A stretch of 4,270 nucleotides of DNA. Origin: a virus (taxonomy: Duplodnaviria; Heunggongvirae; Uroviricota; Caudoviricetes). The stretch lies in the IMG/VR virus record IMGVR_UViG_2602041568_000004. The stretch is one strand, 5' to 3'. Below the pieces are notes generated by a model. That model saw nothing but the letters and a program-made list of their open reading frames with translations. It was not told the DNA's origin and made no database searches. This document shows, piece by piece, positions 1 through 4,270 of this stretch (position 1 is the first letter of the stretch; each line of letters starts with the position of its first letter). A program made the translations under genes and the position numbers.

Positions 1-62
1 AGATCCATTAGCCGATTTCTGCATAGCTCCGGAGGCTTTATTTATCGTTTCTCCCAAACCAA
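1..62 (-). CDS. Possible 5' part of an inverted alternative tail-fibre C-terminal segment (partial; would continue past the window start)
   Basis: Only one minus-strand frame is open from the crossover site to position 1 (reads CIFLNVGLGETINKASGAMQKSANGS going leftward from 78); the other two hit stops at 66-68 and 38-40. In Mu G, P1 C and e14 P segments the invertase-proximal site abuts an inverted variable tail-fibre part. A 26-codon open frame is weak evidence alone (roughly 0.3 by chance). Confidence 0.25.
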
Positions 63-74
63 CGTTTAAGAAAA
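49..74. other. DNA-invertase crossover site (hix/gix/cix/pix-like 26-bp imperfect palindrome)
   Basis: TTCTCCCAAACCAACGTTTAAGAAAA: two 12-bp imperfectly inverted half-sites (8/12 symmetric) around a central AA (61-62). About 20/26 matches to hixL (TTCTTGAAAACCAAGGTTTTTGATAA) as I recall it. Lies 55 bp upstream of the invertase ATG, the usual place for the proximal site of Gin/Cin/Pin systems. Confidence 0.7.
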
Positions 75-129
75 TGCAAAGATTACGGCTAACTGGCATC
101 ATCTCCGGTTTTTATTCAGGGGATCCATC

Positions 130-723
130 ATGCTTATTGGCTATGTCCGCGTGTCAACAAATGACCAGAATACGGAATTGCAGCGTAACGCGCTGGAGTG
201 CGCAGGATGTGAGCTGATTTTTGAGGATAAAATCAGCGGCACGAAGTCCGACCGACCGGGGCTGAAAAAACTGCTCAGAACATTATCGGAAGGTGACACT
301 CTGGTAGTCTGGAAGCTGGACCGGCTGGGGCGTAGTATGCGGCATCTGGTCATTCTGGTTGAGGAGCTGCGCGAACGCGGCGTTAATTTTCGCAGCCTGA
401 CGGATGCTATTGATACCAGCACGCCGATGGGGCGTTTTTTCTTTCATGTGATGGGTGCCCTGGCTGAAATGGAGCGAGAACTCATTGTCGAGCGGACACG
501 CGCCGGACTGGAAGCGGCCAGAGCCAAAGGTCGTATTGGTGGCAGACGACCGAAACTCACCGCGAGTGAGTGGGAGCAGGCCGGGCGTTTGCTGGCTGCA
601 GGGGAGTCACGTCAACGCGTGGCACTGATTTTTGATATTGGTCTGTCCACGCTCTATAAAAAATTTCCCTCATCAGCGACAAAGAATAAATTGTGTCATC
701 CCTTAGCCAACCGGGACAAATAG
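130..723 (+). CDS. Site-specific DNA invertase, serine recombinase of the Hin/Gin/Cin/Pin family (Pin-like)
   Basis: 197-aa ORF. N-terminus MLIGYVRVSTNDQ carries the catalytic Ser at codon 9 (154-156). Conserved resolvase/invertase motifs LVVWKLDRLGRS and GRFFFHVMGALAEMERELIVERT. C-terminal helix-turn-helix VALIFDIGLSTLYKKFP resembles the Hin DNA-binding domain. Weak Shine-Dalgarno (AGGGG) upstream of the ATG. Confidence 0.95.
   Translation: MLIGYVRVSTNDQNTELQRNALECAGCELIFEDKISGTKSDRPGLKKLLRTLSEGDTLVVWKLDRLGRSMRHLVILVEELRERGVNFRSLTDAIDTSTPMGRFFFHVMGALAEMERELIVERTRAGLEAARAKGRIGGRRPKLTASEWEQAGRLLAAGESRQRVALIFDIGLSTLYKKFPSSATKNKLCHPLANRDK
213..237. promoter_or_regulatory. Candidate recombinational enhancer element (Fis-binding region) inside the invertase 5' coding region
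   Basis: Perfect 9-bp inverted repeat GCTGATTTT (213-221) / AAAATCAGC (229-237) with a 7-bp spacer, over codons about 28-36. In hin, gin and cin the Fis-dependent enhancer lies within the first 100-170 bp of the invertase gene. I could not verify Fis-site spacing by eye. Confidence 0.3.
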
Positions 724-782
724 CCTGACATCTCCGGCACAACTGAAAATATCACTCACCCATTAACCACGGAGTTAAACGG

Positions 783-1973
783 ATGAGTGACTATCATCAC
801 GGCGTGCAGGTGCTGGAGATTAACGACGGCACCCGCGTCATTTCCACCGTATCCACTGCCATTGTCGGCATGGTCTGCACGGCCAGCGATGCGGATGCGG
901 AAACCTTCCCCCTCAATAAACCGGTGCTGATTACCAATGTGCAGAGCGCAATTGCAAAGGCCGGTAAAAAAGGCACGCTGGCGGCGTCGTTACAGGCCAT
1001 CGCCGACCAGTCAAAACCGGTCACCGTTGTCGTGCGCGTGGAAGACGGAACCGGCGACGACGAAGAAACGAAGCTCGCGCAGACCGTTTCCAATATCATC
1101 GGCACCACCGACGAAAATGGTCAGTACACCGGACTGAAAGCTCTGCTGGCGGCAGAGTCGGTAACCGGTGTTAAACCGCGTATTCTTGGTGTGCCGGGAC
1201 TGGACACCAAAGAGGTGGCTGTTGCACTGGCATCAGTCTGTCAGAAGCTGCGCGCTTTCGGGTATATCAGCGCATGGGGCTGTAAAACCATTTCCGAGGT
1301 GAAAGCCTACCGCCAGAATTTCAGCCAGCGTGAGCTGATGGTCATCTGGCCGGATTTCCTCGCATGGGATACGGTCACCAGTACCACCGCCACCGCGTAT
1401 GCCACCGCCCGTGCGCTGGGTCTGCGCGCTAAAATCGACCAGGAGCAGGGCTGGCATAAAACGCTGTCCAATGTCGGGGTGAACGGTGTTACCGGCATCA
1501 GCGCATCCGTCTTCTGGGATTTGCAGGAGTCCGGCACCGATGCTGACCTGCTTAACGAGTCAGGCGTCACTACGCTGATTCGCCGCGACGGTTTCCGCTT
1601 CTGGGGTAACCGTACCTGCTCCGATGACCCGCTGTTCCTCTTTGAAAACTACACCCGCACCGCGCAGGTGCTGGCCGACACGATGGCTGAGGCGCACATG
1701 TGGGCGGTGGACAAGCCCATCACTGCAACGCTGATTCGCGACATCGTTGACGGCATCAATGCCAAATTCCGTGAGCTGAAAACAAACGGCTATATCGTGG
1801 ATGCGACCTGCTGGTTCAGCGAAGAATCCAACGATGCGGAAACCCTCAAGGCCGGAAAACTGTATATCGACTATGACTATACCCCGGTGCCTCCTCTTGA
1901 AAACCTGACCCTGCGCCAGCGTATTACCGATAAATACCTGGCAAATCTGGTCACCTCGGTTAACAGCAATTAA
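783..1973 (+). CDS. FI: Contractile tail sheath protein (P2 gpFI family)
   Basis: 396-aa ORF starting MSDYHHGVQVLEINDGTRVISTVST, which I recognise as essentially the P2 tail sheath protein along its length. GGAG at 771-774 sits 8 nt before the ATG. Gene order sheath-tube-E-T is the P2 FETUD arrangement. Confidence 0.95.
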   Translation: MSDYHHGVQVLEINDGTRVISTVSTAIVGMVCTASDADAETFPLNKPVLITNVQSAIAKAGKKGTLAASLQAIADQSKPVTVVVRVEDGTGDDEETKLAQTVSNIIGTTDENGQYTGLKALLAAESVTGVKPRILGVPGLDTKEVAVALASVCQKLRAFGYISAWGCKTISEVKAYRQNFSQRELMVIWPDFLAWDTVTSTTATAYATARALGLRAKIDQEQGWHKTLSNVGVNGVTGISASVFWDLQESGTDADLLNESGVTTLIRRDGFRFWGNRTCSDDPLFLFENYTRTAQVLADTMAEAHMWAVDKPITATLIRDIVDGINAKFRELKTNGYIVDATCWFSEESNDAETLKAGKLYIDYDYTPVPPLENLTLRQRITDKYLANLVTSVNSN

Positions 1974-1985
1974 GGAGCCTGACCG

Positions 1986-2504
1986 ATGGCAATGCCGCGC
2001 AAACTCAAGTTAATGAACGTCTTTCTGAACGGCTACAGCTATCAGGGCGTTGCAAAGTCCGTCACGCTGCCAAAACTGACCCGTAAGCTCGAAAACTATC
2101 GCGGTGCGGGGATGAACGGCAGCGCACCGGTAGACCTCGGCCTTGATGACGATGCGCTGTCAATGGAGTGGTCGCTCGGTGGTTTCCCGGATTCGGTTAT
2201 CTGGGAGCTTTACGCCGCAACCGGTGTGGATGCCGTGCCGATTCGTTTTGCAGGCTCTTACCAGCGCGACGATACCGGCGAAACGGTGGCCGTCGAAGTG
2301 GTCATGCGTGGACGTCAGAAAGAAATCGACACTGGCGAGGGTAAACAGGGAGAAGACACTGAGTCGAAAATCTCCGTGGTCTGCACCTATTTCCGGCTGA
2401 CGATGGACGGTAAGGAGCTGGTCGAAATTGACACCATCAACATGATTGAGAAGGTGAACGGCGTCGACCGGCTGGAGCAACACCGCCGCAATATCGGCCT
2501 GTGA
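1986..2504 (+). CDS. FII: Tail tube protein (P2 gpFII family)
   Basis: 172-aa ORF (MAMPRKLKLMNVFLNGYSYQG...) directly after the sheath gene, with AAGGAG at 1972-1977 overlapping the FI stop. Length and sequence match my recall of P2 gpFII. Confidence 0.95.
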   Translation: MAMPRKLKLMNVFLNGYSYQGVAKSVTLPKLTRKLENYRGAGMNGSAPVDLGLDDDALSMEWSLGGFPDSVIWELYAATGVDAVPIRFAGSYQRDDTGETVAVEVVMRGRQKEIDTGEGKQGEDTESKISVVCTYFRLTMDGKELVEIDTINMIEKVNGVDRLEQHRRNIGL

Positions 2505-2511
2505 TTTTCAT

Positions 2512-2532
2512 CCGGTCAGCCTGGCTGACCGG
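2512..2532 (+). other. Intercistronic RNA stem-loop (9-bp perfect stem, 3-nt loop) between FII and E
   Basis: CCGGTCAGC (2512-2520) / GCTGACCGG (2524-2532), beginning 8 nt after the FII stop (TGA 2502-2504). GC-rich stem with no downstream U-tract (followed by TTAACCCC), so not a canonical intrinsic terminator. Confidence 0.5.
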
Positions 2533-2560
2533 TTAACCCCGATTCATAAGTGAGAAAACC

Positions 2561-2836
2561 ATGAACAAAGAAAATGTCATTACCCTGGACAATCCGGTCA
2601 AACGTGGTGAGCAGGTTATCGAACAGGTCACGCTGATGAAACCCAATGCCGGGACGCTGCGTGGTGTCAGTCTGGCAGCGGTCGCGAACTCCGAAGTCGA
2701 TGCACTGATTAAGGTGCTGCCGCGCATGACGGCACCGATGCTGACCGAGCAGGAAGTCGCCGCGCTGGAACTGCCTGACCTTGTGGCGCTGGCCGGTAAG
2801 GTGGTCGGTTTTTTGTCGCCGAACTCGGTGCAGTGA
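2561..2836 (+). CDS. E: Tail assembly chaperone gpE (zero-frame product)
   Basis: 91-aa ORF (MNKENVITLDNPVKRGEQVIEQ...) between tube and tape-measure genes, matching P2 gpE in position and length. Contains the slippery heptamer near its 3' end. Confidence 0.9.
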   Translation: MNKENVITLDNPVKRGEQVIEQVTLMKPNAGTLRGVSLAAVANSEVDALIKVLPRMTAPMLTEQEVAALELPDLVALAGKVVGFLSPNSVQ

Positions 2837-2988
2837 CGTTTCCAAAAAATCTCTCGGTCGATGACCTGATGGCGGATGTGGCAGTGATATTTCACTGGCC
2901 GCCATCAGAACTGTATCCCATGAGCCTGACCGAACTCATCACATGGCGCGAAAAGGCGCTCCGGCGAAGCGGAAACACGAATGAGTAA
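2561..2988 (+). CDS. E+E': gpE+E' fusion made by programmed -1 ribosomal frameshift (shift at 2809-2815)
   Basis: After a -1 slip at TTTTTTG the -1 frame is open from 2815 to the TAA at 2986-2988, reading ...FVAELGAVTFPKNLSVDDLMADVAVIFHWPPSELYPMSLTELITWREKALRRSGNTNE. Predicted fusion is 85 + 57 = 142 aa (counted from the sequence), matching the known P2 E+E' product and the lambda G/GT paradigm. Confidence 0.8.
2809..2815 (+). promoter_or_regulatory. Slippery heptamer T TTT TTG for the -1 frameshift in E
   Basis: TTTTTTG in phase with E codons TTT (2810-2812) and TTG (2813-2815); the zero-frame stop is 19 nt downstream (2834-2836). Same heptamer as the P2 E/E' shift site. Confidence 0.75.
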
Positions 2989-4270
2989 CAATGTAAAATT
3001 ACAGGTATTGCTCAGGGCTGTTGACCAGGCATCCCGACCGTTTAAATCCATCCGCACAGCGAGCAAATCGCTGTCGGCGGATATCCGGGAAACACAAAAA
3101 TCACTGCGCGAGCTGAACGGTCAGGCATCCCGTATTGAGGGATTTCGCAAGACCAGTGCACAGCTCGCCGTGACTGGTCATGCACTTGAAAAGGCACGGC
3201 AGGAGGCCGAAGCCCTTGCCACACAGTTTAAAAACACCGAACGTCCGACACGTGCTCAGGCGAAAGTGCTGGAATCCGCAAAGCGTGCGGCGGAGGACTT
3301 ACAGGCGAAATATAACCGCCTGACGGATTCCGTTAAACGCCAGCAGCGGGAACTGGCCGTTGTGGGAATTAATACCCGCAATCTTGCACATGATGAGCAG
3401 GGACTGAAAAACCGTATCAGTGAAACCACCGCACAGCTTAACCGTCAGCGTGACGCGCTGGCGCGTGTCAGTGCGCAACAGGCAAAACTTAACGCAGTAA
3501 AACAGCGTTATCAGGCAGGCAAGGAACTGGCCGGAAATATGGCCTCAGTGGGCGCTGCCGGTGTGGGGATTGCGGCGGCGGGAACGATGGCCGGAGTTAA
3601 GTTGCTGATGCCCGGTTATGAGTTTGCGCAGAAAAACTCAGAATTGCAGGCTGTGCTCGGTGTGGCAAAAGACTCCGCCGAAATGGCCGCATTACGCAAA
3701 CAGGCGCGCCAGCTCGGCGATAATACCGCAGCCTCGGCAGATGATGCAGCCGGTGCGCAGATTATTATTGCGAAAGCCGGTGGGGATGTTGATGCCATTC
3801 AGGCGGCAACGCCGGTCACGCTGAATATGGCGCTGGCGAACCGTCGCACGATGGAAGAAAACGCCGCCCTGCTGATGGGGATGAAATCCGCCTTTCAGCT
3901 TTCAAACGATAAGGTCGCTCATATCGGGGATGTTCTCTCCATGACGATGAACAAAACCGCCGCCGATTTTGACGGCATGAGCGATGCGCTGACCTATGCC
4001 GCACCTGTGGCAAAAAATGCCGGTGTCAGCATTGAAGAAACCGCCGCAATGGTCGGGGCGCTGCATGATGCAAAAATTACAGGCTCAATGGCGGGGACGG
4101 GAAGCCGTGCCGTGTTAAGCCGCCTGCAGGCACCGACGGGAAAAGCATGGGATGCACTCAAAGAGCTTGGAGTGAAAACCTCAGACAGCAAGGGAAACAC
4201 CCGGCCAATATTTACCATTCTGAAAGAAATGAACCGCCCCGGGTTTCCTGGAGAGTGTTTTATCTGTGAA
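2981..4270 (+). CDS. T: Tail tape measure protein gpT, 5' part (open to the window edge; only 2981-4229 appears T-derived)
   Basis: Frame open for 430 codons from the ATG at 2981 with no stop in the window (hence absent from the ORF track). Start MSNNVKLQVLLRAVDQASRPFKSIRTASKSL matches my recall of the P2 gpT N-terminus. The ATG overlaps the E' stop (ATGAGTAA), indicating translational coupling. From about codon 417 the frame reads into an IS-like sequence. Confidence 0.9.
   Translation, partial: MSNNVKLQVLLRAVDQASRPFKSIRTASKSLSADIRETQKSLRELNGQASRIEGFRKTSAQLAVTGHALEKARQEAEALATQFKNTERPTRAQAKVLESAKRAAEDLQAKYNRLTDSVKRQQRELAVVGINTRNLAHDEQGLKNRISETTAQLNRQRDALARVSAQQAKLNAVKQRYQAGKELAGNMASVGAAGVGIAAAGTMAGVKLLMPGYEFAQKNSELQAVLGVAKDSAEMAALRKQARQLGDNTAASADDAAGAQIIIAKAGGDVDAIQAATPVTLNMALANRRTMEENAALLMGMKSAFQLSNDKVAHIGDVLSMTMNKTAADFDGMSDALTYAAPVAKNAGVSIEETAAMVGALHDAKITGSMAGTGSRAVLSRLQAPTGKAWDALKELGVKTSDSKGNTRPIFTILKEMNRPGFPGECFICE
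4230..4270 (+). mobile_element. Terminal inverted repeat of an IS3-family insertion sequence (IS629/IS3411-like end), partial, inserted in gene T
   Basis: TGAACCGCCCCGGGTTTCCTGGAGAGTGTTTTATCTGTGAA begins with the 5'-TG...TGAACCGCCCCGGG motif I recognise from IS3-family (IS629/IS1203/IS3411 group) ends. The peptide it encodes in the T frame (NRPGFPGECFICE) is unlike a tape-measure protein. Only 41 bp are visible, so this is provisional. Confidence 0.5.

What the first reader, a model, noticed from the sequence alone, without database searches (positions are those of the whole stretch)
4230..4270. Tape-measure gene T appears interrupted by an IS3-family element, suggesting a defective prophage
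The T frame runs cleanly for about 416 codons, then at 4230 the DNA becomes TGAACCGCCCCGGGTTTCCTGGAGAGTGTTTTATCTGTGAA, which matches the characteristic terminus of IS3-family elements of the IS629/IS3411 type. A truncated tape-measure protein would abolish tail assembly, leaving a cryptic prophage whose invertase and other genes may still be expressed.
Basis: partly seen in the sequence, partly recalled or inferred. Interest (0 to 1): 0.6.

Follow-up and report, generated by a model that had tools for sequence, protein, structure and literature searches.

The report
IS629-type insertion splits P2 tape-measure gene
A P2-like prophage in a Shigella sonnei draft genome has its tail tape-measure gene cut at codon 417 by the end of a common IS3-family insertion sequence (IS629/IS1203 type), which is an ordinary way for a prophage to be disabled.

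Summary
The window is the whole 4,270-bp contig AURV01000092.1 of a Shigella sonnei draft assembly. It carries a Din-type invertase and the P2 genes FI, FII, E, E+E' and T, 97.8% identical to phage P2 over 703-4231. T codons 1-416 match an intact 815-aa E. coli T gene base for base. Homology to every intact T stops at 4229-4231, where intact genes read ATG|CAGGCC.

Bases 4230-4270 match 41/41 the outer end of a 1,310-bp IS1203/IS629 element. That element has TG…CA inverted repeats, orfA/orfB in a -1 frame relation and a 3-bp duplication in the reference copy. The 41-mer occurs about 17,500 times in 3,878 of 5,426 complete E. coli genomes. None of those genomes has this T-IS junction.

One correction: this is the right end of the IS, so the transposase would lie on the opposite strand to T.

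The contig ends inside the repeat, so the rest of the IS and of T cannot be read. Indirect support exists: the predicted leftover ORF (Met417-815, 399 aa) is a separately called protein on five short contigs.

The verdict is a routine IS insertion that most likely abolishes tail assembly. It is already known biology and of low interest.

The parts
49..74 (.). 26-bp Din-type (hix/gix/pix-like) crossover site TTCTCCCAAACC-AA-CGTTTAAGAAAA, the right boundary of the invertible tail-fibre segment. Bases 1-48 lie inside that segment.
   Evidence: Window 1-62 matches L001 772..711 on the opposite strand (100%), and window 49-122 matches L001 2650-2723. The 14-bp overlap ends at the central AA. L007 matches window 4-130 colinearly at 98.4%, so it has the same orientation as the window. 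Reading this as a Din-family site rests on my own knowledge of such sites.
130..723 (+). Serine DNA invertase (Hin/Gin/Pin type), intact, 197 aa.
   Evidence: PF00239 Resolvase E = 2e-52 and PF02796 HTH_7 E = 1.1e-12. Annotated as DNA invertase or recombinase in related phages and prophages.
783..1973 (+). P2 FI tail sheath gene, 396 aa.
   Evidence: Phage_sheath_1, Phage_sheath_1C and Gp18_domIII_N domains. 97.8% nt identity to P2 over 703-4231. The same exact protein is listed in 25,082 blocks of the collection.
1986..2504 (+). P2 FII tail tube gene, 172 aa.
   Evidence: PF04985 Phage_tube E = 2.3e-60.
2561..2988 (+). P2 E (2561-2836) and the -1 frame extension E' (2833-2988), the tail assembly chaperone pair. 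The heptamer T-TTT-TTG lies at 2810-2816.
   Evidence: PF10109 Phage_TAC_7 and PF06528 Phage_P2_GpE. The heptamer is read from the sequence. The frameshift itself is established P2 knowledge and was not tested here.
2981..4229 (+). 5' part of tape-measure gene T: codons 1-416 plus the first base of codon 417. It is truncated from the 815 codons of the intact gene.
   Evidence: 0 nt differences from the intact T of L001. PF10145 is cut at profile position 181/201. Intact relatives are all 815 aa.
4227..4229 (.). Predicted 3-bp target-site duplication AAA (left copy).
   Evidence: Inferred from the junction and from the 3-bp CTT duplication flanking the reference 1,310-bp copy. The right copy was not observed.
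4230..4270 (-). Terminal 41 bp of an IS629/IS1203-type IS3-family element. This is the right end (IRR), and the element is oriented opposite to T. The contig ends here.
   Evidence: 41/41 match to L003 2501-2541, the end of a 1,310-bp element. 17,522 places in E. coli genomes. In 5 of 5 sampled places an IS3-family transposase CDS on the other strand ends 2 bp beyond it.

Best explanation
A copy of an IS629/IS1203-type IS3-family insertion sequence transposed into the tape-measure gene T of a P2-like prophage of Shigella sonnei. It entered between the first and second base of codon 417, in the opposite orientation to T.

Shown: T is broken exactly there, and the foreign DNA is the exact right terminus of that IS.

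Inferred:
- The element is a full 1.3-kb copy flanked by an AAA duplication.
- The 3' half of T (Met417-815) followed by U, D and ogr lies beyond it on another contig.
- The upstream fragment would be translated as T(1-416) plus IS-encoded residues. About 78 such residues are expected if the copy resembles the O157 reference.
- The 399 C-terminal residues, including the hydrophobic segment and the C-terminus, are no longer joined to the N-terminal half.
- Late transcription from upstream of FI must cross 1.3 kb of antisense IS before reaching U and D, so it is probably polar on them.

T, U and D are all required for P2 tail assembly. The prophage is therefore most likely unable to make infectious particles. 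The invertase, sheath, tube and E/E' genes in the window remain intact.

The contig stops 41 bp into the IS because a short-read assembler cannot resolve a multi-copy repeat.
For: - The window is the whole contig AURV01000092.1 of GCA_000467205.1. The partial T protein is named as Shigella sonnei in UniRef.
- Gene identities come from Pfam and from 97.8% nt identity to phage P2 over FI-T.
- T codons 1-416 are identical to an intact 815-aa T, and the sequences diverge at 4230-4232.
- The 41-mer equals the end of a 1,310-bp IS1203 copy. That copy has 13/13 identical TG-led terminal repeats, a 3-bp CTT duplication, a 108-aa orfA (HTH_Tnp_1) and a 296-aa orfB (rve) in the -1 frame.
- The 41-mer is multi-copy in E. 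coli.
- No intact T contains it: 0 of 5,426 genomes hold the junction, and the listed phage alignments stop at or before 4231.
- The left IS terminus would place an in-frame TAG nine codons upstream of Met417. The exact 399-aa Met417-815 protein is on record on 5 contigs, the longest 5,726 bp.
- IS629 is documented as a frequent cause of gene inactivation (PMC9943667). Active IS accumulation is documented in S. sonnei (PMC7373316).
Against: - Only one junction and 41 bp of the IS are visible.
- The five contigs that carry the 399-aa fragment could not be fetched or tied to this assembly.
- Read-through chimeric proteins of 494 and 469 aa, built from two E. coli IS variants, are not in the protein collection. 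No assembly was found that spans the junction into the IS.
- In 3 of 5 sampled E. coli places the same end belongs to a truncated IS.
- One full-length copy lacks matching flanks, so IS-associated rearrangement is a real alternative.
- Loss of phage function was not tested.
Confidence: 0.82

Rival explanations
1. T abuts an IS629-type end, but not through a simple insertion. Either the end belongs to a truncated IS remnant, or recombination between IS copies (deletion or inversion) has removed or relocated the 3' half of T together with U, D and ogr. The prophage would then be a rearranged remnant.
For: - 3 of 5 sampled copies of this end in E. coli are remnants of about 0.17-1 kb.
- A full-length copy in strain E2863 has unmatched flanks, GTC versus GAC.
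- Shigella genomes carry a heavy and active IS load (PMC7373316).
- Nothing beyond 4270 can be read.
Against: - The exact Met417-815 ORF, identical to the C-terminal half of the T allele whose N-terminal half matches the window base for base, is on record as a separate protein on five short contigs.
- That start point is the one predicted for a simple insertion with an AAA duplication.
Confidence: 0.14
2. The junction is an assembly artefact. A chimeric contig end joins an intact T to reads from an IS elsewhere in the genome, and T is in fact whole.
For: The IS part lies in the last 41 bases of a draft contig, where misassembly is most likely.
Against: - A contig running a short way into a repeat and then stopping is the normal signature of a true repeat boundary.
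- If T were intact, the assembler would have continued into unique T sequence.
- The break coincides to the base with the IS terminus.
- The contig is recorded for two samples.
- The complementary Met417 fragment exists.
Confidence: 0.03
3. The 41 bases are a native variant of the T coding sequence and only resemble an IS end.
For: The T frame stays open through 4270.
Against: - The match to the IS terminus is 41/41.
- None of 5,426 complete E. coli genomes holds the junction.
- All listed phage T alignments stop at or before 4231.
- All intact relatives read KEMQASFEKNR at this point.
Confidence: 0.01

Closest known systems
IS629 / IS1203 / IS3411 (IS3 family; 1,310 bp; first described in Shigella sonnei and E. 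coli)
   Same: The 41 visible bases are identical to the right terminus of a PGAP-annotated IS1203-family copy. They start with TG and share 13/13 terminal bases with the left inverted repeat. The element is multi-copy in E. coli. The host species is the one IS629 was first isolated from (own knowledge).
   Different: Only one terminus is visible. Which isoform is present, and whether the copy is complete, cannot be told from 41 bases.
Bacteriophage P2 tail gene block FI-FII-E-E+E'-T (AF063097 / NC_001895)
   Same: Same gene order, with 97.8% nt identity over window 703-4231. The Pfam families are the same.
   Different: T stops being T at codon 417 of 815. An invertase gene and an invertible tail-fibre segment lie upstream of FI, as in the 'P2' prophage of O157:H43 T22, pro483 and S164, but not in canonical P2.
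IS629-mediated inactivation of prophage and chromosomal genes in EHEC O157, with IEE-promoted excision
   Same: Same IS group and the same consequence, insertional gene inactivation (PMC9943667; PMC9397093).
   Different: The host here is S. sonnei. Whether iee is present is unknown, and no excision was examined.

Membership tests
IS3 family, IS629/IS1203/IS3411 group | Terminal inverted repeat beginning 5'-TG, matching the known element end | tested here: met
   4230-4270 is 41/41 identical to the end of the 1,310-bp IS1203 copy in L003. The two ends of that copy share TGAACCGCCCCGG.
IS3 family, IS629/IS1203/IS3411 group | orfA (HTH) and orfB (DDE/rve) overlapping, with a -1 programmed frameshift | not testable with these tools
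   These lie beyond the contig end. They are present in the reference copy: orfA 108 aa with HTH_Tnp_1, orfB 296 aa with rve in the -1 frame, annotated 'programmed frameshift'. In 5 of 5 sampled places the transposase CDS ends 2 bp beyond the 41-mer on the other strand.
IS3 family, IS629/IS1203/IS3411 group | Second inverted repeat about 1.3 kb away | not testable with these tools
   The window ends at 4270. The junction patterns are absent from the collections that could be scanned.
IS3 family, IS629/IS1203/IS3411 group | 3-bp target-site duplication | tested here: inconclusive
   AAA (4227-4229) is predicted. The reference copy has CTT/CTT, but another full-length copy has unmatched flanks. 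The separate Met417-815 ORF fits the prediction, but the right junction DNA was not seen.
IS3 family, IS629/IS1203/IS3411 group | Repeated, mobile distribution in varied genomic contexts | tested here: met
   17,522 places, up to 49 per genome, on chromosomes and plasmids and next to unrelated genes.
P2-type tail tape-measure protein gpT | PhageMin_Tail domain, position after FI-FII-E-E', and near-identity to P2 T | tested here: met
   PF10145 E = 1.1e-42. Synteny. 97.8% nt identity to P2.
P2-type tail tape-measure protein gpT | Complete 815-codon reading frame | tested here: not met
   Only codons 1-416 are T. The Pfam domain is cut at profile position 181/201.

The most novel reading that the evidence does not exclude
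The interruption might not be a dead end. It could be a reversible or tolerated state in one of two ways. The IS could be excised precisely, by IEE-type transposase-dependent excision as shown for IS3-family elements in STEC, which would restore T and an inducible P2-like phage. Or the two T halves (T1-416 plus IS-coded tail, and Met417-815) could be expressed separately and still support assembly of a tail or tailocin. Neither was examined, and nothing in the data points to either.
Probability: 0.03. Interest if true: 0.4.

Novelty: already known. Interest (0 to 1): 0.08.

Why it matters
This has little importance beyond annotation. It explains why the contig ends where it does. It shows that the 'partial' tape-measure protein in the record is a real gene disruption and not only a contig-edge truncation. 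It marks this P2-like prophage of a Shigella sonnei isolate as probably unable to build tails. IS-driven decay of prophages and other genes is a well-documented theme in Shigella and EHEC. This particular junction is rare: it is absent from 5,426 complete E. coli genomes and was seen on one contig. It could therefore serve as a lineage marker for the strain.

Tried and rejected
1. Extending the sequence rightward. The window turned out to be the whole contig.

2. Exact-pattern scans, all with 0 matches:
- left junction in GTDB representative genomes
- predicted right junction in JGI metagenomes
- predicted right junction in GTDB representative genomes
- left junction in JGI metagenomes

3. Fetching the contigs that carry the 399-aa Met417-815 fragment or a read-through chimera.

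4. Exact look-up of nine edge-truncated variants of the C-terminal fragment and of two T'-IS chimeric proteins. None is in the collection. Only the plain Met417 start was found.

5. Looking for the assembly accession AURV00000000 in the literature. No paper holds it.

6. Looking for a paper on IS629 in S. sonnei prophages. Nothing specific was found. The Shigella IS paper does not mention IS629.

7. Considered and rejected: the 41 nt as a native T variant, and an assembly chimera (see the rival explanations).

Full report
WHAT THE WINDOW IS

The 4,270 bases are the complete contig AURV01000092.1 of NCBI assembly GCA_000467205.1. UniRef attributes the partial protein encoded at its right end to Shigella sonnei.

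Six genes lie on the + strand:
- a serine invertase, 130-723 (Resolvase E = 2e-52, HTH_7)
- tail sheath FI, 783-1973
- tail tube FII, 1986-2504 (Phage_tube E = 2.3e-60)
- E, 2561-2836
- the -1 frame extension E', 2833-2988 (Phage_P2_GpE)
- T, from 2981 to the end of the contig without a stop (PhageMin_Tail E = 1.1e-42)

Bases 703-4231 are 97.8% identical to phage P2 itself. Bases 63-4231 are 96.8% identical to a P2-like phage of E. coli O157:H43 that also has the invertase. 'P2-like tail block' is therefore correct.

THE OBSERVATION

Related prophages all have a T gene of 815 codons. The first 416 codons of the window's T (2981-4228) show no nucleotide difference from the intact T of E. coli strain 600055.

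In the alignment, both sequences read ...CTGAAAGAAATG. The intact gene then continues CAGGCCAGCTTTGAG, while the window continues AACCGCCCCGGGTTTCC. The Pfam tape-measure domain is cut at profile position 181 of 201.

The 41 bases 4230-4270 were found at 17,522 places in 3,878 of 5,426 complete E. coli genomes, with up to 49 places per genome, on chromosomes and plasmids.

In O157:H7 strain PV15-279 the 41-mer is the first 41 bases of a 1,310-bp element:
- It is bounded by TGAACCGCCCCGG...CCGGGGCGGTTCA and flanked by a CTT/CTT duplication.
- PGAP annotates it as 'IS3-like element IS1203 family transposase, programmed frameshift'.
- It has a 108-aa orfA (HTH_Tnp_1) and a 296-aa orfB (rve, HTH_21) in the -1 frame.

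In all five places I inspected, an IS3-family transposase CDS on the opposite strand ends 2 bp beyond the 41-mer. The 41-mer is therefore the right end (IRR) of an IS629/IS1203-type element. In the window the element points against T.

The test asked whether any intact T gene contains these 41 nt. It fails. An 81-base query centred on the junction has no place covering at least 80% in any of the 5,426 genomes. The best T matches stop at window 4231. The listed phage matches stop at 4227-4231.

WHAT CANNOT BE SEEN, AND WHAT STANDS IN FOR IT

The contig ends inside the repeat. The transposase, the other inverted repeat, the duplication and the 3' half of T are therefore out of reach. Exact-pattern scans for the left junction and for the predicted right junction found nothing in GTDB representative genomes or JGI metagenomes. 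This was expected, because those collections hold no S. sonnei isolate assemblies.

I predicted the right junction from the intact gene: IS left end, then the AAA duplication, then TGCAGGCC. In that arrangement the IS terminus supplies an in-frame TAG nine codons upstream of the native Met417. A gene caller should then report a 399-aa protein starting exactly at Met417.

That exact protein was built from the C-terminal half of the strain 600055 allele, whose N-terminal half matches the window base for base. It is in the 15-billion-protein collection, on five contigs from NCBI, Logan and ENA, the longest 5,726 bp. Nine variants with extra N-terminal residues are not in the collection.

This is good indirect evidence that the other half of T survives next to an IS left end. 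I could not fetch those contigs, so I cannot tie them to this assembly. Read-through chimeras built with two E. coli IS variants are not on record.

CAVEAT

The same IS end also occurs as part of truncated copies:
- a copy of about 1 kb lacking the transposase N-terminus in strain E2865
- a remnant of about 170 bp at a conserved chromosomal site in two strains

One full-length copy has unmatched flanks. An IS-associated deletion or rearrangement, as opposed to a clean insertion, therefore remains possible. I give it about 0.14.

MECHANISM

Shown: T is split at codon 417 by IS629-type DNA.

Inferred from established P2 biology:
- T, U and D are essential tail genes transcribed in the same direction as FI.
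- The N-terminal fragment would carry IS-coded residues. Fourteen are visible (MNRPGFPGECFICE). About 78 in total would be present if the copy resembles the O157 one.
- The C-terminal 399 residues are detached from the N-terminal half.
- Transcription must cross an antisense IS to reach U and D.

The likely result is that no functional tails are made. The prophage would be defective for particle production although its invertase, sheath, tube and chaperone genes are intact.

COMPARISON WITH WHAT IS KNOWN

IS629 is a well-known agent of gene and prophage inactivation in EHEC (PMC9943667; PMC9397093). S. sonnei accumulates IS insertions continuously (PMC7373316). Nothing in this finding departs from that picture. 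It is a correct reading of an ordinary event, so novelty is 'already known' and interest is low.

The only speculative extension is reversibility through IEE-type excision, or function of a split T. No data here support either.

SEEN IN PASSING

- Both contig ends stop a few dozen bases inside repeats. The left end lies 48 bp inside the invertible tail-fibre segment, next to a 26-bp Din-type crossover site at 49-74.
- That segment is flipped relative to strain 600055 and matches the orientation in L007.
- The E/E' slippery heptamer TTTTTTG is at 2810-2816.

Noticed in passing
window 1-4270: The window is an entire draft contig (AURV01000092.1, GCA_000467205.1, Shigella sonnei). Both ends stop a few dozen bases inside repeated or invertible DNA: 48 bp into the invertible segment on the left and 41 bp into the IS on the right. 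This is the signature of short-read assembly breaks.
   Followed up: partly
window 1-74: There is a 26-bp Din-type crossover site, TTCTCCCAAACC-AA-CGTTTAAGAAAA, at 49-74. Bases 1-48 are the reverse complement of sequence that sits inside the tail-fibre gene of E. coli 600055 (L001 725-772). The invertible tail-fibre segment is therefore flipped relative to that strain, and it has the same orientation as in L007.
   Followed up: partly
window 2810-2816: The slippery heptamer T-TTT-TTG lies near the end of E, with the E' ORF (2833-2988) in the -1 frame. This is the known P2 E/E+E' tail-chaperone frameshift arrangement.
   Followed up: no
L016 1601-1774 and L017 1601-1774: The same IS right end exists as a remnant of about 170 bp (an IS3-family transposase fragment) at a conserved chromosomal site beside a ymgB/ariR-like gene in unrelated E. 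coli strains. This may account for part of the 3,878 genomes that hold the 41-mer. It also shows that the 41-mer alone does not prove a full-length IS.
   Followed up: partly
L015 1601-2909: A full-length (1,309 bp, frameshifted) IS1203 copy in E. coli E2863 has unmatched flanking triplets (GTC versus GAC). This suggests recombination between copies or decay of the duplication.
   Followed up: no
L001 5582-8029 and flanks: E. coli 600055 (stool, Bangladesh) carries an intact prophage whose T is identical to the window over all 1,249 shared bases. Its right end is ogrK, next to trhP-yegP-baeR. It is a close intact counterpart of the S. sonnei prophage.
   Followed up: partly
predicted right junction (not in window): The IS left terminus read in the T frame gives ...V * S P G F P G R F K M417. 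The 3' half of T thus becomes a free-standing ORF starting at its native Met417. That exact 399-aa protein is on record on five short contigs.
   Followed up: partly
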